Source: a virus
IMG/VR virus record: IMGVR_UViG_3300043177_000268
Span: 59,478 to 123,477 of that record
Strand: one strand, 5' to 3'
Length of the DNA stretch: 64,000 nucleotides
Part shown: piece after piece, positions 2,944 through 58,751 of the stretch
How the letters are laid out: every line of letters starts with the position of its first letter
Position numbering within the stretch: the stretch's first letter is position 1
Notes under the pieces: model-generated
Seen by the model: only the letters and a program-made list of their open reading frames with translations
The model's database searches: none
Told to the model about the DNA's origin: nothing
Position numbers and translations under genes: made by a program

Positions 2944-3567
2944 TTAACCGTCAGATCTCCTAAATCTATTGAGATTTGGGCTATCTTTGAGCGCCGCTAA
3001 CTTTGCCATTCTCTGTGCCGTTAGCGGGTCCGACGCTCCCCCGTCAAGGTCTACCAGCGAGGTGGGGTCAGGCGGCATTAAACCGGCCATGGCTGCGGCG
3101 AACTCCGAAGTCCCGGCGCCGGCCCCCTTGGCGGTCTTAGCGACCGTCATATCGCCTTTGGAGAGGCCGAACTCGCGCTCGGCCTCCGCTCGGAGGGCGA
3201 AGATCTCTTGGCGTCGCTCCTCTTCTGGCAAGCTCTTAAGGTGAGGGTACTCCTCCAACAGCTCGCGCTCAATCTCTTCATCCTGCATTTGGGATCGAGT
3301 TTTTGGTTTTACCCTGGCTGATGGCTGAATGGAGGATGCTAACCCCTGCCCTCTCGGTACAAGGTCATATTTGCCGGCGATTAGAGCAGCTACTTTAACG
3401 AGCGTAGCTTCATCAACATCTGCATCCGCCAGCTTTTCCTTGATTGAAGTAAATTCGGCATTAATTGCTGCGGACATGATCGTCTTGCCGCATGCAGGGC
3501 ATGAGTTGTCCTGAAGTGCCTTGGTAAAGGACGGCGGTATCGGGGTTTGACAGTTATTGCATTTCAT
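2944..3567 (-). CDS. zinc-ribbon hypothetical protein
   Basis: N-terminal CNNC...CPAC. Confidence 0.6.
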   Translation of the reverse strand: MKCNNCQTPIPPSFTKALQDNSCPACGKTIMSAAINAEFTSIKEKLADADVDEATLVKVAALIAGKYDLVPRGQGLASSIQPSARVKPKTRSQMQDEEIERELLEEYPHLKSLPEEERRQEIFALRAEAEREFGLSKGDMTVAKTAKGAGAGTSEFAAAMAGLMPPDPTSLVDLDGGASDPLTAQRMAKLAALKDSPNLNRFRRSDG

Positions 3568-17004: not shown

Positions 17005-19110
17005 TTAGGAAATTTCGACCTCGCTACCAGCATGGGTGCGTTTTACAGTGATAATTGTCTCAAACTCATCCTTCAACGCAGGATCGTGTGTGATCACAAG
17101 AATCTTCATATGACGCTCCAATTTTCGTATGATGGTGACAAATATATCGATATTGTACGGATCCAAACTGGAACTAACCTCATCTAAAAGCAGCAGTTGC
17201 GCCTCGCCTCCCATCCTGCGAGCCTGAATTGAGCCAAGAGCGAGTCGGATTGCAAAGGATACTATAAACTTCTCGCCGCCACTCAGTGAGTGCCAGGGCT
17301 GGGGGCCATTTCGTGTATTGATTTCTATATCAAAAGTCTCTTTCCACTCGCCTTTGGTGCCCTGCTTTTGCGTGACGAACGAGATGTGCATTGGCTCGCT
17401 AGAAAATTCAGATAGCCATGCATTAGTTGCTCTCGTCAGTTCATCAACAACATTGTCGATGATAATCGCTTGGACGCCATCTCTACCAAAAGCTTTCGTT
17501 AATCGGCTATAGACTGTCGCTTGCTTGGTGCACTCATTAAGTATATCCATAGCCTTATTGCGCGCATCCAGAGTCTCTTGCAGAGCTTCGATTTGCGCTG
17601 CCAGCTGCCCGCTTTTGACGAAAAGCTCCCGGGCGCTATTTCTATTGCTCTTTAATTCCTCTTTTTTGATGGACAGTTGTTGCGTTTTAAGAGCATATGA
17701 ATCTAATGCCTCGACATTAGAAATTGAATTCAGAGCTGCTCGGATATCGTGCAGCTTCTTTTCAGTTAATAGAATTTCTTCCAGAAGCGCCGAGCGCTGA
17801 CCTTCAGTCGTTGTTATTCGCAATTGAAGTGTATTGAGCCCGTCATTTAGATTAGCAAGTTGTATCTTGAACTTCTCAAGATCAAACGCCTGCTGCGATA
17901 GTCTCTCAAGCTCCCCCTTCGCAGCAGTTACTTTGCTCTCTGCGCGCTGCACCTTTGCCAGTAGAGTCGCCAGTTCTGCCTTCCGAGCATCTAACTCGGC
18001 CTGTTTGGAAGCGGCGTCGGTCCATTCGTGGCCACATGTGGTGCATTTATCACCGTTTGTTAGGGTTTCTATTTGAGTTCTTATTTGACGAGTCTTGGCT
18101 TTCCCCTCCACTAGAGAGGCTTCCATCTTAGATACGTCTGCTTTACGCAGTTCCAAATCTGCACTTGCAAGCTCCTTAACTAGATTTGCCAGCCCAGCCT
18201 CTTTTTCTTCAATGGCCTTCTGGGCCGAAGCGAGTGAACTATTTAGCTCTGTAAGAGTGCGGTCGTGGGTATTACGCACGGATTGTAGCCTGCTCAGCTC
18301 TTTATCTAATCGCGAACTTTCCGTATCCAATTCTTTAATCTTTGTCGCTTGACGCCCCTTATCCGAATCGGATAGTATAGCGTCTTCCAAAAGACTTATT
18401 TGTTTTTCAAGTTCAGCACTGTCAGAGGCTAGTGCCTCAATCTGAGCATTGACGTTGACAAGCTCATTGCGGGAGTCGCGCAGAGAACTCTCTGCGTTTT
18501 CGGAGCGCAGAAGCTGCGCTCTCATAATCTCAATCTCCCCTTCTAGCTTGTCGAATCTAGTTTTAGCAACCTTCTGATACTTTGTCCAATCCTCCAAATT
18601 CAACAGAGAGCCGAGAAGCGCCTGACGCGTAGAAAATGTGCCCTGTGTAAAATCGAAGAATGAACCCTGTCTAAAATAGACGGAGTTTAAAAAAACATCA
18701 TATGTGCATTTTATTGTCTCACAAATGATCGAGTCTGTAATCTTATTTGTATCACCATGCAGTTTTTCTCTTTGACCGTCTTCGGTCACGCGCCAGAACT
18801 CCGTAATCATTTTGGAATATTTGGCATTGCGCGTGCGCTTTATTTGGTATTTCTGTTCATTGTGAATAAAATCCAACACAACTTCGCACGTTACCTGACC
18901 GCGCTTGACTACATCATCGGCATTCTTATCTCCAGTTTCTCCATAAAGTGCAAATGATAGGGACTCGAGGATGGATGATTTTCCACTGCCATTACTTCTG
19001 CGTGGATCTCCAGACTTCTCGCCTATTATAAGAGCAGAGGAGAAGTCGAAATCTATTACCGAATGCGTGTGGCTCTTGAAGTTGCTGAGCTCTAATCTAG
19101 TGGGAAGCAC
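17005..19110 (-). CDS. sbcC: SbcC/Rad50/gp46-like SMC ATPase
   Basis: Walker A NGSGKSS, coiled coil with zinc hook CTTC, signature LSGGE, Walker B LLLDE. Start moved to GTG 19110 (AGGAG RBS). Confidence 0.92.
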   Translation of the reverse strand: MLPTRLELSNFKSHTHSVIDFDFSSALIIGEKSGDPRRSNGSGKSSILESLSFALYGETGDKNADDVVKRGQVTCEVVLDFIHNEQKYQIKRTRNAKYSKMITEFWRVTEDGQREKLHGDTNKITDSIICETIKCTYDVFLNSVYFRQGSFFDFTQGTFSTRQALLGSLLNLEDWTKYQKVAKTRFDKLEGEIEIMRAQLLRSENAESSLRDSRNELVNVNAQIEALASDSAELEKQISLLEDAILSDSDKGRQATKIKELDTESSRLDKELSRLQSVRNTHDRTLTELNSSLASAQKAIEEKEAGLANLVKELASADLELRKADVSKMEASLVEGKAKTRQIRTQIETLTNGDKCTTCGHEWTDAASKQAELDARKAELATLLAKVQRAESKVTAAKGELERLSQQAFDLEKFKIQLANLNDGLNTLQLRITTTEGQRSALLEEILLTEKKLHDIRAALNSISNVEALDSYALKTQQLSIKKEELKSNRNSARELFVKSGQLAAQIEALQETLDARNKAMDILNECTKQATVYSRLTKAFGRDGVQAIIIDNVVDELTRATNAWLSEFSSEPMHISFVTQKQGTKGEWKETFDIEINTRNGPQPWHSLSGGEKFIVSFAIRLALGSIQARRMGGEAQLLLLDEVSSSLDPYNIDIFVTIIRKLERHMKILVITHDPALKDEFETIITVKRTHAGSEVEIS

Positions 19111-20320
19111 TTTTATCTCCTGCTGCGCGAATAATGTCCACACCGGCATCTATCAACATTTTGCGCATCTCTTCATCATCAACTGAATTCTCAAGGTACA
19201 TCCTCAATGCTTGCACATGTGAAATATCCTCGGTAATTCTATCATCTCTAGATTGCCTAGATGTTATTATCTCAGGTTTAATTTCCGCACAGAAGTGCGC
19301 TCCATATACATCTCTCAGATGAGATGCGATCGTGCGCGCATCTAGGAATTGTTCATCTTCGGCGCATATACGTATTGTCGTGCGCACTATGCTGCTCGAG
19401 AGGCTATGTGTTTTAGCATAAGCGGCTATGTCGATCTTGATCCTATCCATCAGCTGCTCGCCCACAACCATGGATGCATAATCCAACGTTAGGTCCCACA
19501 TGTCACGGCATGGCTCTCTGTAGTATTCGACATTGGCAGTTTCAAGATCAATTATAGCATAGAGTTTATCGTGGTCTTCAAACCCACCCCTCTTTTCCAT
19601 TGAGCCGATATACGCTATGTAGGGGTTCTCGCTAATGACACCTGGCTTATGTATATGCCCCATCAAAGTGACATTTATGCCGGAAAACATGCTGCACGGC
19701 AAGGTTAATTGATTCTCGCCATATAAATCCTTATACGCTTCATCGACAAATGTGCCTTCTATAGTCATGTGCCCCACTAAAATTGTGGGCAAGATGTTGT
19801 TGCGTACGGACATCAGGGCGTCTAACTCAGATTTGATGGCTTGCACGGCATCGGCATGCGTCTCCTGCTCCATCCACAGTCGATCTCGGTAGGGCATGAG
19901 AATGAGGTTTGCTACTGGCTTGCCGAACCACTCTATAGTTTGCAGAGACAGATCATCATATACGCGTATATTTGGTAGGTTAAGTTCCTTCAGGTAAGAT
20001 ATGGTCGTTGTAGCGTGAATACGCTGTTGATCGTGATTTCCTATTACAATATGTATGCGCTCTATCCCTTTAGACAAAGCGCGGTGTAGACTCTGAGAGA
20101 AGATTTTTTGTTGAACAATAGATGGGAACCTATGTTCAAAGATATCTCCTGTGAATACAATCTCTGAAACGCCCGCCGCAACCATCTCATCAATTGTAAT
20201 ATCTAAAGTCTCTGCATAATCAATAAGGCGCGTATTGACATTTAGCGAAGGGTGCTGCTTTCCTGCCCACTGGTTGGCTCCTAAGTGCACATCTCCGATA
20301 ACACCGATTTTAATACTCAT
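19097..20320 (-). CDS. sbcD: SbcD/Mre11/gp47-like nuclease
   Basis: Metallophosphoesterase motifs GDVHLG, TGDIF, GNHD, GHIH; adjacent to sbcC. Confidence 0.92.
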   Translation of the reverse strand: MSIKIGVIGDVHLGANQWAGKQHPSLNVNTRLIDYAETLDITIDEMVAAGVSEIVFTGDIFEHRFPSIVQQKIFSQSLHRALSKGIERIHIVIGNHDQQRIHATTTISYLKELNLPNIRVYDDLSLQTIEWFGKPVANLILMPYRDRLWMEQETHADAVQAIKSELDALMSVRNNILPTILVGHMTIEGTFVDEAYKDLYGENQLTLPCSMFSGINVTLMGHIHKPGVISENPYIAYIGSMEKRGGFEDHDKLYAIIDLETANVEYYREPCRDMWDLTLDYASMVVGEQLMDRIKIDIAAYAKTHSLSSSIVRTTIRICAEDEQFLDARTIASHLRDVYGAHFCAEIKPEIITSRQSRDDRITEDISHVQALRMYLENSVDDEEMRKMLIDAGVDIIRAAGDKSASH

Positions 20321-52909: not shown

Positions 52910-53677
52910 TCAGCTAAAGTCAGGATCTGAATATGCATTTTCTGCAGCAGGACTAGCGAATATTACCCGACATTTGTCGCACATGTCCGGATCGTCTCGG
53001 TAGCATATTCCTATCCATTTGCCAGTAAGGACATTGTACATTTTTTGATACTTCTTAGAGGATCGGACGAGTTGTGGGTGTTCCTTGTGCTCTGCCTGAT
53101 TTAGCAGGAATTCCTCATTCCTGACGTTATTTCGTGTCTTGACCAGGACGTTTAGCGTAACACTCTCGCCACCTTGCGGATTCTGCGTTCGCTGTATAGA
53201 CGCGATGAGTGGGACGCGATCAAGCGTATCCGAGTCTGTCACGCTCCAGCGCTCAGGCAAGCACTCTTCGAATGCCGCCATAAGTGCCGCATCTAGCGAT
53301 GCCTCAGGGCCTGCCCACAGATTAGGAGGGCAGGCCCTGAATACCGCTGCGTGTGTTTCGTTAAATGCGGCCATTGACAGCACACCGTCCGCCACACTAC
53401 GTCCCGACACCTGCTCGAAGGACAGGTGCGGATGTAGACCGCGCGGCGTCGGCAGCAGCCGTACACAGCAAATATTTCTGTGTACGGCTCTATCACTTTC
53501 CTCCATTTGATACCAGGCCGTCAGCACCACTGGCACAGCATACTTGGTAAGAAAGTACTTCCTCGCTAACGCCGCAGATTGCGTTCTGGCAATAAGAAGC
53601 ATTTCTGCTGGTGAGAAGTCGGAGACGAGAGTGCGCTTTTCGGAAAAAATAAGTGGAGTCATTACAGCCCCTGTCAC
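52910..53677 (-). CDS. hypothetical protein downstream of ThiF/E1
   Basis: Coupled to the E1 gene by a 4-nt overlap; C-terminal C...CDKC. Confidence 0.55.
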   Translation of the reverse strand: MTGAVMTPLIFSEKRTLVSDFSPAEMLLIARTQSAALARKYFLTKYAVPVVLTAWYQMEESDRAVHRNICCVRLLPTPRGLHPHLSFEQVSGRSVADGVLSMAAFNETHAAVFRACPPNLWAGPEASLDAALMAAFEECLPERWSVTDSDTLDRVPLIASIQRTQNPQGGESVTLNVLVKTRNNVRNEEFLLNQAEHKEHPQLVRSSKKYQKMYNVLTGKWIGICYRDDPDMCDKCRVIFASPAAENAYSDPDFS

Positions 53678-54540
53678 TTAGGTAGACGCAGTGCGAGCCC
53701 CAGCTTGGACCACGATTCCAACGAGGACTTCGTCAGCGGCCTTTGCGAGAACTTATTTTTGATTGAAAATTCAACCATGTATGTGGATATGGGATTTCCG
53801 CTTAGCAGATCATACACGAAGTTGAGTGCAAAAGTGGCCGCATTAAGGTTGACGAATCCGAATTGATTTGAGGACTCTGCCATCTCAGCACAACTGAGTT
53901 CGCTAGCCAGCTTATCTGTCTTAGCTCGCTCGACTAGCTCGGGGAATACTTCGAACAGATGCGGGGTGCGATACACCCCGGTGCTGGGCTCCATTGCTGA
54001 TGTTATGCAGGTGAGGAGCACCTGGCCGGCCACATCTTCATTGCCACAGTCAATGATATAACCGCCATTTGGGTAATATAGCTGAAGGGCCTCGACCATA
54101 AACTTCCGGGCTTTGATATTGTCAACGCACGAAATGATGAGTGGCGTAGAATTACCATAGTTTATGTTGTTGACCTGCGCATTGCGGAGGGCTGTTTTGA
54201 TAGAGTTTGCGGATTCTAGATACTGCGGCAGGAATTGTATCTGCGTACCAAATGCAGTTGAATATCTCCTGGCCAGAGCCTCAGCCTTGTTTTTACCAAC
54301 ATCAGACTTGATAAAGTTCTGGCGTATAAGATTCTTTGGCTCTACCGTATCTGCATCTGCAAGTGTCAAACAGACTGGCTGCCTGCTGTTAAGCAGCAAA
54401 CGAACTAGATTTGGGATGACGTAACTGCCCGTGCCTCCGCAGCCTATAACTAGTACATTTTGTATATTTGTCAGCGGCTTGAGCGGATACAGGGGTTCGA
54501 TCGTGAGTGTTTTTGTCTGTGCCATGCTACATTGCCTCAC
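53674..54540 (-). CDS. ThiF/E1-like ubiquitin-activating enzyme (PRTRC ThiF-like)
   Basis: VIGCGGTGS, DADTVEPKNLIRQNF...DVGKNKA, SCVDN, DCGN, candidate catalytic Cys in LSCAEM. Confidence 0.92.
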   Translation of the reverse strand: MRQCSMAQTKTLTIEPLYPLKPLTNIQNVLVIGCGGTGSYVIPNLVRLLLNSRQPVCLTLADADTVEPKNLIRQNFIKSDVGKNKAEALARRYSTAFGTQIQFLPQYLESANSIKTALRNAQVNNINYGNSTPLIISCVDNIKARKFMVEALQLYYPNGGYIIDCGNEDVAGQVLLTCITSAMEPSTGVYRTPHLFEVFPELVERAKTDKLASELSCAEMAESSNQFGFVNLNAATFALNFVYDLLSGNPISTYMVEFSIKNKFSQRPLTKSSLESWSKLGLALRLPK

Positions 54541-55697
54541 TCATTCAGGAATGGGTCTGATGGAAGTTCGTCTGTCTCGGCAGCGTCTGCAACTTCTGGA
54601 AGGAGCGCCACTATCGTCTCTTCGTGGCCCGCCTCGAGAAGAGATCCAATCAGGTCGGCAACGTCATCATCAGTCATGGCGTCGACCAATTTGTCGAACA
54701 GTCTCTGCTTCTGTACTCTTGTCATTTCAACTCCTCCGATAGAAAGGCGCGCGGTGGTGCTTTTAATCAGATCAATCAGTAGTTCGTCATCATCAGCGTC
54801 TACGTCTGACGACGCTGCGCTCCGCTGAAAAAAGGGGTGGTCCGCCGCCGCACCTCCCATTCTCCTACGAGCATCGCTTATTGCGAATTCAAGCTCGGTT
54901 TCAATGTCCAGTTGTGTGGGGCGAGATCTGTGCGTCATCGCCGCACGTTCATTGCCCAGCGACGTACTTTCAGACGAAGAAGTGGTTCTGACAGGAGCTG
55001 TTGGATATTTAGTAATCCTGCTTTTCCAATCGCCAGGAAAGGCGACCTCCGGCTCCTCCTCAAAGATATCTTCGCGTTTAATAATCACCCGCTTGCCTCC
55101 ACACACAAAGGAGAAGAGCGTGGCAGGTGAGGACTGATTTAACTTACCGATAACACCAAAAAATCTGTCACTCTTCTCATCAGCATTGTCTGTTCCAGAG
55201 AAAAAAGCATCCATTGTGTTGTGGGAGTGAGTCTCTAGAACAAGGTGGCACCGCGCTTCAAGTTCCGTATCTCTCTCGAAATTGACTGAAGCGCCGCTAA
55301 CTCGTTGGGCCGGGACATGGTTGAAGTACCGCTTCTCAACGGGGTCCCAAAATGTTTGGACGTACGCCTCATCCTTGCTCTCGTCGCAGATGGATTTAAA
55401 AAAAGCAAGTATTTCTTTGAAGAGGGCTAGCGGTATCTTGCCGAAGTGGCTCCGGCCATACTCTACATTTTGCTCTTCAGGAAATCCAGGAAGTGGGTTT
55501 GCGAATTTCTCCCTCTGGATAACAAAAATGCCTGCCCTGGACTTCCGTAGTTCCCAGACGCCATCGCGTCTGACAATGTAGTTTACCGGCTTCTCTACAT
55601 TGGAAATGTCGGGCCAAGCCGCGTCCGTGAGGAATCCGGTATTCTGACGAGCCAGAAACGTTTTCAGATCTAGTTTAGGCTGAGATGATTCAGTCAT
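54537..55697 (-). CDS. JAB/MPN metalloprotease (PRTRC protein A-like)
   Basis: JAMM motif HSHNTMDAFFSGTD with an upstream Glu (DEAY); long acidic C-terminal extension. Confidence 0.88.
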   Translation of the reverse strand: MTESSQPKLDLKTFLARQNTGFLTDAAWPDISNVEKPVNYIVRRDGVWELRKSRAGIFVIQREKFANPLPGFPEEQNVEYGRSHFGKIPLALFKEILAFFKSICDESKDEAYVQTFWDPVEKRYFNHVPAQRVSGASVNFERDTELEARCHLVLETHSHNTMDAFFSGTDNADEKSDRFFGVIGKLNQSSPATLFSFVCGGKRVIIKREDIFEEEPEVAFPGDWKSRITKYPTAPVRTTSSSESTSLGNERAAMTHRSRPTQLDIETELEFAISDARRRMGGAAADHPFFQRSAASSDVDADDDELLIDLIKSTTARLSIGGVEMTRVQKQRLFDKLVDAMTDDDVADLIGSLLEAGHEETIVALLPEVADAAETDELPSDPFLNE

Positions 55698-55700
55698 TCG

Positions 55701-56420
55701 TCACTCTCCGTGCTTGAATATGGTTTTGATTGCTGTATCAAAATTCTTATATTCTCGACTGTGAGGAAGCAGCCACTCGGTGTCGAATGGGTGCTCAGTC
55801 AGATATTTGAGATAGCTCTGAGCTACTGACTCGTTATCTCTACTCACCTGCGCCCATGGGAACTTTGAGTTTAGGCACGAGGTCTGGAATAGGTCATCAT
55901 TGAATGGGGCCGTGAAGAATCTCCGCACCGCGCCATTTAGTGCAGCTAACGATTTAAAGTTCTTGATCGCCTCTTCGTTTTGCCCCCAGCAAATTCTAGC
56001 ATCTGGGAATACATTTGGTGTAGGGTAACTGTACAGCCCATCAATACCAAGCATAATGTTATTCTGCTTCATTGCAAAGATGTATGAATTGCTCACGAAA
56101 TAGTGATCATTCGCCTTTGTGAGGATGAAGAGGAATAGAGCCGGAGGCAGGTTGGCTTTGCCCACGGCGTCAGCGGCGCGACCGCGCGAAGAGAATGATA
56201 CATCATACGTGCTGGCTGGGCGCTCTACCGCTATGTGCGTCTGATCTCCTTTGACGCCAAGGTATCGCGTGCCGATGGGCAGGAATCCAATGTCAAATGC
56301 GACATTGGTGGACAGCACCTTGACTAGATCGGTCAGGTCTATTCCCTTGACCTGCTTGTTGCCAGTAGGATCTGTGTACGTGAGGGTCGTTCCCGATTCA
56401 ACAATATTTACGTCTAACAT
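55701..56420 (-). CDS. prokaryotic E2 family D protein (PRTRC protein B-like)
   Basis: LYSYPTPNVFPDARICWG with conserved Cys, followed by RFFTAPFNDDL. Confidence 0.8.
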   Translation of the reverse strand: MLDVNIVESGTTLTYTDPTGNKQVKGIDLTDLVKVLSTNVAFDIGFLPIGTRYLGVKGDQTHIAVERPASTYDVSFSSRGRAADAVGKANLPPALFLFILTKANDHYFVSNSYIFAMKQNNIMLGIDGLYSYPTPNVFPDARICWGQNEEAIKNFKSLAALNGAVRRFFTAPFNDDLFQTSCLNSKFPWAQVSRDNESVAQSYLKYLTEHPFDTEWLLPHSREYKNFDTAIKTIFKHGE

Positions 56421-56423
56421 TTT

Positions 56424-57287
56424 TCACCATCCAAAAAGTGTGTCTGTGGAGATTGTCATTTGCTGACGCTCGTCAGTTGCTATAACGGGACTAACATCGT
56501 ATGTCAGCTGATTTGGGGCATCCATTATTTCATTAATGGTCATTGTGCGGCGGCGGCGAATTTCTTCCAACCTTTCTCTAGCTATCCGCTGGGCTCTAGC
56601 GCTATCAGTCTCTTCAAGAGAGACGGCTGTAGGCTGATTCTTTACAACAGTTACCAGAATATTCGCCCTGCCAGCAATTACCTCGCGGCGCTGCTCTTCG
56701 GAAAGAGAAGAGTGTGCGAGAATCAGGGCGCGCATGACGAGAAGCTTGGCTGCCAGGATCTTGTTGAAATCTTCTTGCTCGCGCTCTAAATTGCAGAATG
56801 GCGCAGTCTTAAATGCCGGGATTAGAAATTCCAGAGCTGTGTTACCTGAGCGTCCATCTTCGTGTGTGAATGGTGATACGCCGCCGGCAAGCTCCATAGC
56901 AGTCGCGAGATCGGGTGATTGGCGAGAGAAATTGAGTGCTCCTACAATTGCCGCTGCAATGTTATAGTCTATGCCGTCCGCCACGAGCCTACCACCCAAC
57001 CCGCGAACCAAGATCTTAGGAGACCAGCTTACCGATAAGCCTGGCGTTTTTGCAATTTGCTTGTCAACAGCAAAGCGCAAATTCTCTATGAAGTGCTTTG
57101 AGTTGAAAGCTATGAAAGATTTCATGACTTCATTCACAGCCTCCGGCTTTGAGAAGTCCAGCGTTGAAATCTCGCTATATCTAGTTGACGTGGGGCGCCG
57201 AGATCTGCGCCCAAGCACGAGACTTTGCTCTACAACAAAGACGTGATTTAGAAGGGAGGCTGCAAGTTGCTCTCTGAGCTTTGACAT
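56424..57287 (-). CDS. hypothetical protein within the Ubl locus
   Basis: Long ORF between the Ubls and E2. Confidence 0.6.
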   Translation of the reverse strand: MSKLREQLAASLLNHVFVVEQSLVLGRRSRRPTSTRYSEISTLDFSKPEAVNEVMKSFIAFNSKHFIENLRFAVDKQIAKTPGLSVSWSPKILVRGLGGRLVADGIDYNIAAAIVGALNFSRQSPDLATAMELAGGVSPFTHEDGRSGNTALEFLIPAFKTAPFCNLEREQEDFNKILAAKLLVMRALILAHSSLSEEQRREVIAGRANILVTVVKNQPTAVSLEETDSARAQRIARERLEEIRRRRTMTINEIMDAPNQLTYDVSPVIATDERQQMTISTDTLFGW

Positions 57288-57293
57288 GTGACC

Positions 57294-57569
57294 TCAGATG
57301 AAGTCTGAGTTGAGACTTACAGTCTTCAACCTCAGGAAAACGCCTTTGCACTCTCGCGCGCTAAACCTCGCGCTAAGCATATCTTTGGCGGTACAGTTCT
57401 GGAATATCGTATCAATATCTTCCTGGGAGAGGGCTCTGCGAGCCTGAATTAGCTTCTCCAGCGAAGAGCATGAGAGTATGGCTGTGATGTTATCTGAATG
57501 GCGCTTAAATGTCTCGCCGAAGAACTTGTCGATGATTTGCTTTTGAATTTCAGGAATATTCATCTTCAT
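57294..57569 (-). CDS. hypothetical protein within the Ubl locus
   Basis: Start moved to MKMNIP because the track start lies inside the terminator hairpin. Confidence 0.55.
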   Translation of the reverse strand: MKMNIPEIQKQIIDKFFGETFKRHSDNITAILSCSSLEKLIQARRALSQEDIDTIFQNCTAKDMLSARFSARECKGVFLRLKTVSLNSDFI

Positions 57570-57572
57570 CCC

Positions 57573-57617
57573 AAAAATAACGGTGGGGACATCAGCGAGT
57601 GACATCCCCACCGTTAT
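57573..57617 (-). terminator. strong rho-independent terminator after the Ubl pair
   Basis: 18-bp stem (two G:U pairs on the minus-strand RNA) ATAACGGTGGGGATGTCA-CTCGC-TGATGTCCCCACCGTTAT followed by TTTT. Confidence 0.88.
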
Positions 57618-57632
57618 GGTGCGGCTTATAGC

Positions 57633-57818
57633 TCAACCCTTGGTTCCGGCCTTCTCGGAGAACTCCCAAGTGGTGGAGCCATCGGCATTTTGCACGCGAT
57701 TCACCTGCGCGTGCATGATGGCGGGCGCCTGCTCTGAAAGAGCAGCGCGGATTTCCCCTTCGGTGTGACCCGGAGGGAGGTGGTAAGTGACGCCCTGGAA
57801 AATAACGGTGTCCTGCAT
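57633..57818 (-). CDS. prokaryotic ubiquitin-like protein, copy B (PRTRC protein C-like)
   Basis: 61 aa ending WEFSEKAGTKG; AGGAG RBS. Confidence 0.82.
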   Translation of the reverse strand: MQDTVIFQGVTYHLPPGHTEGEIRAALSEQAPAIMHAQVNRVQNADGSTTWEFSEKAGTKG

Positions 57819-57951
57819 TGTATACTCCTACAGTGGTGTATATGTGTTTTACCCGCCTCAGCACCACAACAGAGTCGGATATTTGTGAAAATCAACCCTT
57901 GGTTCCGGCCTTCTCGGAGAACTCCCAAGTGGTGGAGCCATCGGCATTTTG
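57633..57951. repeat. 60-nt exact direct repeat (57633-57692 = 57892-57951)
   Basis: Base-by-base comparison of the 3' ends of the two Ubl genes. Confidence 0.95.
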
Positions 57952-58074
57952 AAACTTATTTAGAGTTGCATGCAGAATAGCGGGGGCTTGTTCTGAGAGG
58001 GCTGCGCGAATCTCGCCTTCCGTGTGACCGGCGGGAAGATTATACGTAACCCCTTGAAATAGTACTGTATCCAT
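57892..58074 (-). CDS. prokaryotic ubiquitin-like protein, copy A
   Basis: 60 aa from ATG 58074 with the same C-terminus, WEFSEKAGTKG. Confidence 0.82.
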   Translation of the reverse strand: MDTVLFQGVTYNLPAGHTEGEIRAALSEQAPAILHATLNKFQNADGSTTWEFSEKAGTKG

Positions 58075-58079
58075 GTGCT

Positions 58080-58301
58080 TCAATCCTTGTCTTTAAGTTG
58101 TTTCCTGGAGCGCTTGAGGACAACAATGTCCAGCTCCTCGGGGTCACCATCTTCGACGGGAACCTCCACTACCGAGACACGCTTCTTGCTGACGCGCGCC
58201 TTCTCGCCCGAGAAAAGGGTGCCGAGCTTTCTTGAAGCTAGAACACCTACGGCTGCGCCACCGGCAGCAGCTACACCAAGTAATTTCAATAATCCGGTCA
58301 T
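58080..58301 (-). CDS. small membrane-anchored protein
   Basis: LLKLLGVAAAGGAAVGVLA; AGGAG RBS. Confidence 0.6.
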   Translation of the reverse strand: MTGLLKLLGVAAAGGAAVGVLASRKLGTLFSGEKARVSKKRVSVVEVPVEDGDPEELDIVVLKRSRKQLKDKD

Positions 58302-58391
58302 ATGTTCTCCTTATTTACTGTAACCATGCGTGTTGCTGTCACCGTTAGCGACTACTGCTACGCGGACGGCGGCCACATTGGACGCCTGCCT

Positions 58392-58751
58392 TTAATCCTC
58401 TGCTGGCGTCTCTAACTCCTCGACTTCACCGGCATTTAGCACAGTTAGCTGTACGAAAGCATGTGTAAGTTTTGAAAGTGCCTCATTTAACTTATTAGAT
58501 GGCGGTATGTCCCTAAACAGAATGCTTAGGACAGCCTTGACTACTGACATTTGAACATCTATCTCATCTCTGTGTTGGGATGGATTGAGGCGCAGCTTCC
58601 ATGTGGCTGGCGCCTCTGCTTCCACACAATCAGAGATTTTAGACAAATCCGTAATTTCTACTTGAATCTTGTAGTACGGATCTACATGGAGGATGTTTGT
58701 GTACTCCTCTATGAGGGCTTCAGCTAGGGAAAGTATATCAGCTTCCTTCAT
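58392..58751 (-). CDS. hypothetical protein
   Basis: Co-oriented ORF. Confidence 0.55.
   Translation of the reverse strand: MKEADILSLAEALIEEYTNILHVDPYYKIQVEITDLSKISDCVEAEAPATWKLRLNPSQHRDEIDVQMSVVKAVLSILFRDIPPSNKLNEALSKLTHAFVQLTVLNAGEVEELETPAED

What the first reader, a model, noticed from the sequence alone, without database searches (positions are those of the whole stretch)
57633..58074. Tandem Ubl paralogs: synonymous sites diverged, but the last 60 nt identical
In the 5' ~41 codons, 25 of 32 conserved residues use different synonymous codons (counted by hand). The final 19 codons plus stop are identical at the nucleotide level. This mosaic suggests recent gene conversion of the C-terminal strand and tail that E1 recognises, while the rest of the surface differs (H/N, P/A, QVNRV versus TLNKF). 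That could give two tags with shared activation and different readers.
Basis: partly seen in the sequence, partly recalled or inferred. Interest (0 to 1): 0.65.

Follow-up and report, generated by a model that had tools for sequence, protein, structure and literature searches.

The report
Gene-converted tails of twin phage Ubls
A huge uncultured phage carries two adjacent small ubiquitin-like tag genes whose last 60 bases were recently copied from one gene onto the other, a clean but textbook case of gene conversion that happened separately in at least two phage lineages.

Summary
Two minus-strand genes, Ubl-A at 57633-57818 and Ubl-B at 57892-58074, differ at 25 of 32 conserved degenerate codons in the first 41 codons. 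They are base-identical over the last 19 codons plus the stop codon. Chance is excluded (0 of 200,000 permutations). An independent k=31 assembly of the one run that holds this DNA (possibly the record's source sample) gives the same exact two-copy 60-nt repeat.

Relatives settle the cause. The nearest relative (L026) keeps a distinct B-type tail, about 80% identical to its A tail. The window's two tails are both 97% identical to that relative's A tail, so A overwrote B. A second lineage (L012) has its own 58-nt identical tail pair with different synonymous variants. This requires at least two conversion events after the lineages split. The tract never enters the variable patch (codons 36-43).

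The genes sit upstream of an E2, JAB and ThiF-type E1 operon of the PRTRC / class 6d kind, on a fragment of a phage of roughly 370 kb.

The idea of two tags with different readers is untested. Unconverted relatives show that tail identity is not required. This scan noted the same repeat earlier on another, near-identical record.

The parts
57892..58074 (-). Ubl-B gene (60 aa), the upstream copy. It is the B-type paralogue and the recipient of the conversion.
   Evidence: ORF with an AAGGA-type SD. B-type orthologues occur in L012, L026/L027, L011/L025, L001 and L015. Purifying selection.
57633..57818 (-). Ubl-A gene (61 aa), the downstream copy. It is the A-type paralogue and the donor of the tail.
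   Evidence: ORF with a GGAG SD. The best family hits are PRTRC_C (E 3.7e-4) and Prok_Ub (E 0.057), both below their cut-offs. The AF2 model has pLDDT 86 and a beta-grasp-like topology.
57633..57692 (-). Identical 60-nt tract, copy in Ubl-A (codons 43-61 plus the stop codon). In the model it covers the end of strand 3, a loop, the last strand and the flexible tail.
57892..57951 (-). Identical 60-nt tract, copy in Ubl-B (codons 42-60 plus the stop codon).
   Evidence: Logan's k=31 assembly makes it a separate 60-nt unitig that fits both places.
57693..57713 (-). Variable patch of Ubl-A (codons 36-42, HAQVNRV), directly 5' of the tract. It is strand 3 of the model.
   Evidence: These are the most variable columns of the family alignment. 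pN/pS is 0.39-0.56 here against 0.09-0.25 elsewhere.
57952..57972 (-). Variable patch of Ubl-B (codons 35-41, HATLNKF). It marks the 5' limit of the converted tract.
57819..57891 (-). 73-nt spacer between B and A, holding a conserved stem-loop and the SD of Ubl-A.
   Evidence: The stems differ between relatives. The loop motif GUGGUG and a downstream CACCAC are kept. The element is also present upstream of the single Ubl in L007.
57572..57619 (-). Strong hairpin plus U-run between the Ubl-A stop codon and the next gene. It looks like an intrinsic terminator or attenuator.
   Evidence: dG -32.1 kcal/mol, z -4.7, 0 of 200 shuffles as stable. Inverted repeat I1. A hairpin with a different sequence sits at the same place in L026.
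58080..58301 (-). 73-aa protein gene with a hydrophobic N-terminal segment. Ubl-B starts 5 nt after its stop codon.
   Evidence: It is conserved at this position in relatives with one or two Ubls. The hydrophobic segment is read from the sequence and was not tested.
57294..57569 (-). 91-aa protein of unknown function (89 aa in relatives).
   Evidence: No family match.
56424..57287 (-). 287-aa protein of unknown function. It is a candidate for the fast-evolving helical protein of class 6d operons.
   Evidence: Conserved position in relatives. No family match. The equivalence to the 6d helical protein is inferred from PMC1779556.
55701..56420 (-). E2-like protein (Prok-E2_D).
   Evidence: Pfam PF14460 scores 34.7 bits against a cut-off of 25. 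PRTRC_B is the best NCBIfam hit, below its cut-off.
54537..55697 (-). JAB/JAMM peptidase with a long C-terminal extension.
   Evidence: Pfam PF14464 scores 28 bits against a cut-off of 25. The HSH...S..D motif is in the translation. PRTRC_A scores 53.5 bits, below its cut-off.
53674..54540 (-). ThiF-type E1 (288 aa, single adenylation domain).
   Evidence: Pfam ThiF scores 64.2 bits against a cut-off of 28.1. PRTRC_ThiF scores 125 bits against a cut-off of 144.75.

Best explanation
The two genes are old tandem paralogues (A-type and B-type) of a small ubiquitin-like tag. They belong to a phage-borne operon with an E1, an E2 and a JAB peptidase. Purifying selection kept the proteins similar while synonymous sites diverged to saturation. 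In this phage's recent ancestry, a short tract of homologous recombination copied the last ~52-60 nt of Ubl-A onto Ubl-B. This was non-reciprocal gene conversion between direct repeats 259 bp apart. I infer the course of the event as follows. The tract probably started in the tail, because selection on the protein keeps that part most alike at the DNA level. It ended on the 3' side where homology ends (the stop codon). It ended on the 5' side where the mismatch-dense variable patch (codons 36-43) blocks heteroduplex extension, or where selection removes tracts that would erase the A/B difference. The same kind of event happened separately in a second lineage. The conversion changed about two residues of B's tail to the A state, for example Gln to Lys six residues before the C-terminal Gly. 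Both tags now present an identical last strand and tail to the operon's enzymes. Shown here: the mosaic, its significance, its direction and its recurrence. Inferred: the recombination mechanism, why the tract stops where it does, and any functional effect.
For: (1) The mosaic is far beyond chance. (2) The tract and the rest of the gene give conflicting relationships. In the 5' part, win_B is nearest to L011_B and L012_B (74-76%), and win_A is nearest to L026_A, L005_A and L012_A (84-89%). In the tail, win_A equals win_B and L012_A equals L012_B. (3) Direction: both window tails are 97% identical to the L026_A tail and 80% identical to the L026_B tail. They also carry the A-type ...SEKAGTKG ending, whereas the unconverted B genes of L026, L011, L025 and L001 have ...SEQAGTKG. 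(4) Recurrence: L012 has a 58-nt identical tail pair starting at the same position, but it differs from the window's tail at 6 synonymous sites, each shared by both copies of a genome. Relative to L026_A, the window tail has 2 changes and the L012 tail has 4. Each lineage therefore needs a conversion after the split, whichever way the unresolved tree goes. The neighbouring genes of these two phages differ at 44-60% of conserved codons, so the identity inside each genome is young compared with the split. (6) The repeat is not an artefact. Logan's k=31 contigs of run X1 break exactly as an exact 60-nt two-copy repeat should, show no alternative letters, and give depth 16.5 on the repeat against 7.7 on the 259-nt stretch between copies. 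In another sample, two contigs end inside the L012-type repeat while a third assembly spans it. (7) The machinery is present: a RecA/UvsX-like recombinase (83 bits, above the cut-off) and SbcCD-like nucleases are encoded in the same record. (8) Other pairs show shorter identical runs elsewhere: 20 nt at gene nt 13-32 in L001, and 23 nt at 143-165 in L011. This fits sporadic short-tract conversion throughout this gene pair.
Against: No raw reads or long reads were available. The only run is held as contigs and may be the source of the record itself, so this support is not fully independent. The branching order of window, L012, L026 and L011 is unresolved. 'Two independent first events' therefore cannot be told apart from 'one ancestral event kept up by later ones'. 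Unconverted pairs already share nt 127-134, so the 5' end of the tract is only located to nt 127-135, and the shared breakpoint is less exact than it looks. Whether the patch stops the tract mechanically or through selection is not resolved. Positive selection on the patch is not shown (pN/pS 0.39-0.56).
Confidence: 0.8

Rival explanations
1. Adaptive homogenisation. The conversion did occur, but it was fixed by selection because both tags must fit the same E1, E2 and JAB enzymes, while the patch stays different to serve different readers or targets.
For: The converted part is the last strand plus the tail. In solved E1-Ubl systems this part enters the adenylation site (established knowledge of MoeB-MoaD and Uba1-ubiquitin). 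The same region was homogenised twice. Diagnostic A/B residues are kept across lineages.
Against: L026, L011/L025 and L001 keep B tails that differ from their A tails at 2-6 residues, yet their genes are intact and constrained. Single-Ubl relatives exist. The tail is also the region where homology-driven, neutral conversion is most likely. No binding or charging data exist.
Confidence: 0.2
2. Selection acts on the nucleotide sequence itself. The 60 nt would be a functional RNA or DNA element needed in both copies, such as a regulatory structure, or a pair of recombination sites used to delete or amplify one Ubl gene.
For: Identity is exact and ends at the stop codon. Direct repeats of 60 nt could mediate loss of the 259-bp unit. 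The unitig between the repeats has lower depth (7.7) than the flanks (12.8).
Against: The tract is not more structured than shuffled sequence (z -0.68). The sequence is not conserved between genomes: there are 6 synonymous differences to L012, and there is no identity at all in the L026, L011 and L001 pairs. The depth ratio of repeat to spacer is 2.1. That fits two copies with a local coverage dip better than a 40% deletion variant, which predicts about 2.7.
Confidence: 0.06
3. Assembly artefact. The two tails really differ and were collapsed or chimerised during metagenome assembly.
For: The record is a metagenome assembly with modest depth (about 13x k-mer depth). Repeats are error-prone for assemblers.
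Against: An independent k=31 graph built from the reads holds one 60-nt unitig joined to four unique neighbours, and no contig at 90% likeness or more carries other letters. Unconverted pairs share runs of at most 23 nt, too short for collapse at the usual k. A different sample and assembler give the same pattern in L012, and other assemblies break inside that repeat.
Confidence: 0.03
4. Recent whole-gene duplication, followed by replacement of the 5' two-thirds of one copy through recombination with a distant phage's B-type gene.
For: It would give the same mosaic within a single genome.
Against: B-type 5' halves are present at the same locus in all two-Ubl relatives, with divergences similar to those of neighbouring genes. 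The nearest relative has a full B-type gene including a B-type tail. This model would also need the same rare double event in L012.
Confidence: 0.04

Closest known systems
Concerted evolution and gene conversion of eukaryotic ubiquitin repeats and genes (discussed for example in PMC10457151)
   Same: Tandem copies of a small beta-grasp modifier are under strong purifying selection, and stretches of DNA are homogenised within a genome. This gives higher identity between copies in one genome than between orthologues.
   Different: Here the copies are two separate genes, each with its own start codon and SD, in a phage. Only the last 60 nt are homogenised, and the rest is synonymously saturated. 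The two copies are distinct, conserved types (A and B), not interchangeable repeats.
PRTRC cassette (NCBIfam TIGR03735-03738) = operon class 6d of Iyer, Burroughs and Aravind 2006 (PMC1779556)
   Same: The gene set matches: a small Ubl ending in Gly, an E2 lacking the classical His (Prok-E2_D), a JAB peptidase with an N-terminal extension, a ThiF-type E1, and a fast-evolving unknown protein. All four best NCBIfam hits are PRTRC models.
   Different: All NCBIfam scores are below the curated cut-offs. No ParB-like gene is present in the 142-kb fragment. The cassette is carried by a huge phage rather than a plasmid or ICE. There are two Ubl genes instead of one.
Bil (BilABCD) and Bub bacterial ubiquitination-like defence operons (PMC10557695, PMC11601596)
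   Same: The logic is the same: Ubl, E2, JAB and E1 in one operon.
   Different: [quoted passage not shown] The E1 here is a 288-aa single ThiF domain. No PADLOC defence model matches the Ubl, E2 or JAB. The host of the system is a phage, not a bacterium.
One E1 serving two different Ubls, for example Uba6 with ubiquitin and FAT10 (PDB 7sol, listed; established knowledge)
   Same: It is a possible analogy for two tags activated by one enzyme through similar C-terminal tails.
   Different: This is purely an analogy. No charging data exist for this system.
Poly-Ubl proteins of the same family (P0018, P0019, P0022, P0034, P0038)
   Same: They have the same C-terminal AGTKG motif and the same domain. 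Copy number is multiplied in tandem.
   Different: In those proteins, 2-5 units are fused head to tail in one ORF with a short cap, like polyubiquitin. Here the two units are separate genes 73 nt apart.

Membership tests
Gene conversion (concerted evolution) between paralogues | An identical or near-identical tract significantly longer than the background divergence allows | tested here: met
   A 60-nt run against a 34% mismatch background. 0 of 200,000 permutations reach it; hypergeometric P 3e-9.
Gene conversion (concerted evolution) between paralogues | Inside the tract, paralogues within a genome are more alike than orthologues between genomes. Outside the tract, the reverse holds. | tested here: met
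   Tail: 100% (window) and 98% (L012) within a genome, against 88-90% between those two genomes. 5' part: A versus B 66%, against A-A 84-89% and B-B 72-76%.
Gene conversion (concerted evolution) between paralogues | An identifiable donor and recipient | tested here: met
   Both window tails are 97% identical to L026_A and 80% to L026_B, and both carry the A-type SEK signature.
Gene conversion (concerted evolution) between paralogues | The repeat is real in the DNA molecules (read-level support) | tested here: inconclusive
   Logan k=31 contigs agree. However, they are contigs, possibly from the source sample. No raw or long reads were available.
Prok_Ub (PF14454) / PRTRC protein C (TIGR03738) | Profile score above the curated cut-off | tested here: not met
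   PF14454: 13.7 and 11.9 bits against a cut-off of 25. TIGR03738: 20.6 and 13.3 bits against 45.95. These are nevertheless the best or only specific hits, and they align to the C-terminal end of the models.
Prok_Ub (PF14454) / PRTRC protein C (TIGR03738) | Beta-grasp fold | tested here: inconclusive
   AF2 model with pLDDT 86 and order strand-strand-helix-helix-strand-strand. The top structural matches are ubiquitin, MoaD, Fubi and GB1, but only at Z about 5 and Foldseek E of 0.05 or more.
Prok_Ub (PF14454) / PRTRC protein C (TIGR03738) | A conserved C-terminal Gly directly before the stop codon | tested here: met
   AGTKG followed by the stop codon is invariant in all 14 aligned homologues. 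It is also the unit end in the poly-Ubl forms.
PRTRC / class 6d operon | Ubl, E2 (Prok-E2_D), JAB and ThiF E1 encoded together | tested here: met
   The Pfam hits are above their cut-offs. The same gene order occurs in every relative that is long enough.
PRTRC / class 6d operon | An associated ParB-related protein (which gives PRTRC its name) | tested here: inconclusive
   No ParB_N match in the record. However, the record is only about 38% of the genome.
Bil type I/II operons | [quoted passage not shown] | tested here: not met
   The E1 is 288 aa with one ThiF domain spanning residues 27-261. The Bil architecture is taken from PMC11601596.

The most novel reading that the evidence does not exclude
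The phage runs a two-tag ubiquitin-like system. A-type and B-type Ubls are charged, transferred and removed by one E1/E2/JAB set through a common last strand and tail. The strand-3 patch and residue 13 give each tag its own readers or targets. Recurrent conversion of the tail would then be the genomic trace of both tags being tied to the same enzymes. This would be a minimal viral counterpart of one E1 serving two modifiers.
Probability: 0.25. Interest if true: 0.7.

Novelty: new member of a known kind. Interest (0 to 1): 0.4.

Why it matters
The mosaic is a natural experiment on a family of phage-borne ubiquitin-like systems that has never been studied. It shows which part of the tag tolerates being swapped between the paralogues (the last strand and tail). 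It also shows which part is always kept distinct (strand 3 and residue 13). That points directly to the residues to mutate or swap when testing enzyme recognition against target or reader specificity. It is also a clean, datable example of short-tract gene conversion in a huge phage that encodes its own RecA-like recombinase. As an evolutionary mechanism, though, it is ordinary.

Tried and rejected
- blastn of the operon against 50,697 phage records: no match.
- IMG/VR scans with the E2 protein and with the Ubl alignment: no relatives confirmed. The metagenome scan added only 4 loci.
- PHROGs and PADLOC: nothing for the Ubls, E2, JAB or the unknown proteins.
- Word-index search for longer (fused) relatives: none. 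The exhaustive profile search did find poly-Ubl forms.
- Complex prediction of E1 with the Ubl: no verdict (score 0.12, below the mark). This is neither support nor evidence against binding.
- The look-up of sequencing runs: one DNA holder, kept as contigs, possibly the source sample; no RNA holder listed.
- Contig depths cannot show whether a deletion variant between the repeats exists.
- The consensus promoter/terminator scan found nothing by its own rules on the gene strand, although folding shows a strong hairpin with a U-run after Ubl-A.
- Maximum-likelihood trees of the 126-nt and 57-nt parts are mostly unresolved. I used only identities and shared variants.
- The exact Ubl-B protein could not be looked up on its 368-kb contig. 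The P0005 contig gave gene calls but no DNA.
- The 60-nt tract folds no better than shuffled sequence.
- Excess synonymous divergence in the 5' part (selection against recombination) is not supported: 25 observed against 20.8 expected, within about 1.5 sd by my own estimate.

Full report
**What is there**

On the minus strand, two small ORFs lie head to tail. Ubl-B is at 57892-58074 (60 aa) and Ubl-A at 57633-57818 (61 aa), separated by 73 nt. Ubl-B starts 5 nt after the stop codon of a 73-aa gene (58080-58301).

Downstream of Ubl-A, in order, are:
- a strong hairpin with a U-run (57572-57619; dG -32 kcal/mol, z -4.7);
- a 91-aa gene and a 287-aa gene, both without family matches;
- a Prok-E2_D protein (55701-56420);
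- a Prok-JAB peptidase (54537-55697, with the HSH...S..D motif);
- a 288-aa ThiF-type E1 (53674-54540).

The E2, JAB and E1 all score above their Pfam cut-offs. The best NCBIfam hit of each of the four components is a PRTRC model (C, B, A and ThiF), but all are below the curated cut-offs. The gene set is operon class 6d of Iyer et al. 2006 (PMC1779556).

The record is an IMG/VR virus entry of 142 kb, estimated at 38% complete. The exact Ubl proteins are also on record on a 368-kb contig. The record encodes a terminase large subunit with an intein, a phage-type DNA polymerase, SbcCD-like nucleases and a RecA/UvsX-like protein. It is therefore a fragment of a huge phage.

**Are the small proteins Ubls?**

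Sequence evidence alone is weak: Prok_Ub E 0.057 and 0.2, PRTRC_C E 3.7e-4 and 0.07. An AlphaFold model built on 14 homologues has pLDDT 86. It has two strands, a helix, a short helix, two more strands and a disordered seven-residue tail. Its best structural neighbours are ubiquitin, MoaD, Fubi and GB1, all beta-grasp proteins, but only at Z about 5.

Every homologue ends in AGTKG followed by the stop codon. An exhaustive profile search also finds proteins made of 2-5 such units fused head to tail. Each unit ends in AGTKG, and the protein ends in a short cap, like polyubiquitin. Taken together with the operon context, I accept the Ubl assignment. A complex prediction of E1 with the Ubl gave no verdict.

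**The observation**

It is correct to the codon. In the first 41 aligned codons there are 8 identical codons, 25 synonymous differences and 8 amino-acid differences. The last 19 codons plus TGA are identical. Identity ends at the stop codon, and the flanks are unrelated.

Permutation of the 42 mismatches never gave a run of 60 nt (0 of 200,000). The hypergeometric P for the terminal run is 3e-9. The 5' synonymous divergence (25 of 32) matches saturation under this genome's codon usage (20.8 expected). The duplication is therefore old and the proteins are held by purifying selection (pN/pS 0.09 outside the patch).

**Artefact?**

The single public run that holds this DNA is stored as Logan k=31 contigs. 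It may be the source sample, so it is not fully independent. Its graph is exactly that of an exact 60-nt two-copy repeat:
- a 48.8-kb contig ends 30 nt into the A tail;
- a 259-nt contig bridges from the A tail to the B tail;
- a 60-nt contig fits both places;
- a 95-kb contig continues from the B tail.

No contig shows other letters. Depths are 16.5 on the repeat and 7.7 on the bridge, a ratio of 2.1.

In a groundwater data set, one assembly spans the related pair (L012), while in another replicate two contigs end inside the repeat (L019, L005). Unconverted pairs share runs of at most 23 nt, too short to be collapsed. I rate an artefact at about 3%.

**Relatives**

Ten 90%-identity clusters of homologues exist. 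They fall into 61-aa (A-type) and 60-aa (B-type) forms. Eight loci with both genes were read, and other relatives have a single A-type gene at the same place. The pairs compare as follows:

| Pair | 5' part: identical / synonymous / non-synonymous codons | Longest identical run |
|---|---|---|
| Window | 8 / 25 / 8 | 60 nt, gene nt 127-186 |
| L012 | 10 / 21 / 10 | 58 nt, nt 127-184 |
| L026, L027 | 15 / 15 / 11 | 20 nt |
| L011, L025 | 21-22 / 10-11 / 9 | 23 nt |
| L001 | 19 / 14 / 8 | 20 nt, at nt 13-32 |
| L014 | 18 / 21 / 3 | 17 nt |

Three facts decide the cause.

1. **Conflicting relationships.** In the 5' part, the window's A is nearest to other A genes (84-89%) and its B to other B genes (72-76%), while A against B is 66%. 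In the tail, A equals B within the window and within L012.
2. **Direction.** L026_A is the closest relative of the window's A gene (5' part 89%, tail 97%). L026_B keeps a different tail, 80% identical, ending ...SEQAGTKG like the B genes of L011, L025 and L001. Both window tails are A-type (...SEKAGTKG). So A was copied onto B, changing about two residues of B.
3. **Recurrence.** The tail of the L012 pair differs from the window's at six synonymous sites, and each variant is present in both copies of its genome. Relative to L026_A, the window tail has two changes and the L012 tail has four. At least one conversion is therefore needed in each lineage after they split, whatever the true branching order, which is unresolved.

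The neighbouring genes of the window and L012 differ at 44-60% of conserved codons. The identity within each genome is therefore much younger than the split.

**Limits of the tract**

On the 3' side the tract ends where homology ends. On the 5' side the last mismatch is at gene nt 126 in both lineages. However, unconverted pairs already share nt 127-134, so the real end lies somewhere in nt 127-135. What is robust is that no tract crosses codons 36-43.

These codons form strand 3 of the model and are the most variable columns of the family. Their pN/pS is 0.39-0.56, against 0.09-0.25 elsewhere. That shows relaxed or mildly diversifying evolution; positive selection is not shown.

With ten or more mismatches in 18 nt, this patch is a natural barrier to heteroduplex extension. 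Selection for keeping A and B different is the alternative, and I cannot separate the two. Short identical runs at other positions in L001 and L011 suggest that small conversions occur all along the pair in different lineages.

**Function**

A and B are two maintained types. His13 occurs in all A genes and Asn or Gln13 in all B genes. Val39 against Leu39 holds with one exception each. A genes have an extra Gln2. This is compatible with two tags that have different partners, but nothing here tests that.

Against a need for identical tails: several relatives keep divergent B tails, and some phages have one Ubl only. I therefore favour homology-driven, near-neutral conversion (0.8 for conversion as the mechanism). 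Adaptive fixation is a nested possibility (0.2).

The strong hairpin after Ubl-A, which has a different sequence at the same place in L026, suggests that the tags are expressed above the level of the enzymes. This is an inference.

**Verdict**

Gene conversion is supported and extended: it ran from A to B, it recurred, and it is bounded by the variable patch. The two-reader idea remains open. The mechanism is textbook, as in the concerted evolution of ubiquitin genes (for example PMC10457151). The setting, twin tags of an unstudied phage Ubl system, gives it moderate interest.

Two earlier first-reader notes of this scan describe the same 60-bp homogenised end on another record sharing all 80 sampled words. 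That record is probably the same phage assembled elsewhere.

Noticed in passing
window 57819-57891 (minus strand); also L012:485-559, L011:3959-4028, L001:5922-6000, L014:338-440, L007:3923-4000: A stem-loop sits in the 5' leader of Ubl-A. Its stem sequence differs between relatives but still pairs. Its loop keeps GUGGUG, and a complementary CACCAC is kept just 5' of the SD. This could be a pseudoknot or an alternative pairing that controls Ubl-A translation. The element is also present where there is only one Ubl.
   Followed up: partly
window 57572-57619 (minus strand); L026 about 3190-3270: A very stable hairpin plus U-run (dG -32, z -4.7) lies between Ubl-A and the enzyme genes. A hairpin of different sequence is at the same place in L026. 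It is a likely terminator or attenuator that sets the ratio of tag to enzymes.
   Followed up: partly
P0018, P0019, P0022, P0034, P0038: The same Ubl family includes polyubiquitin-like proteins of 2-5 head-to-tail units. Each unit ends in AGTKG, and the protein ends in a 1-10 residue cap. In P0019, units 2-4 are nearly identical to each other while unit 1 differs.
   Followed up: partly
window 57300-58400, Logan contigs of run X1: The 259-nt unitig between the two repeat copies has depth 7.7, against 12.8 on both flanks. This is either a local coverage dip or a subpopulation that lost the unit by recombination between the repeats. Contigs cannot tell.
   Followed up: no
window codon 21 of both Ubls; L011 codons 10 and 19; L001 codons 35-36: At several variable positions, the two paralogues of one genome share the same unusual residue. 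For example, Gly21 occurs in both window genes, encoded GGG and GGC. This could reflect older conversions or co-adaptation to the same enzymes.
   Followed up: no
L022:1770-4682 (G000:C1:41770-44682): The terminase large subunit (GpA ATPase domain) is interrupted by an intein carrying a LAGLIDADG endonuclease.
   Followed up: no
G000:C1:57758-58585 (just upstream of the window): A RecA/UvsX-like recombinase gene (83 bits, above the Pfam cut-off) lies next to the window. Together with the SbcCD-like genes at window 17005-20320, it shows that the phage has its own recombination machinery.
   Followed up: no
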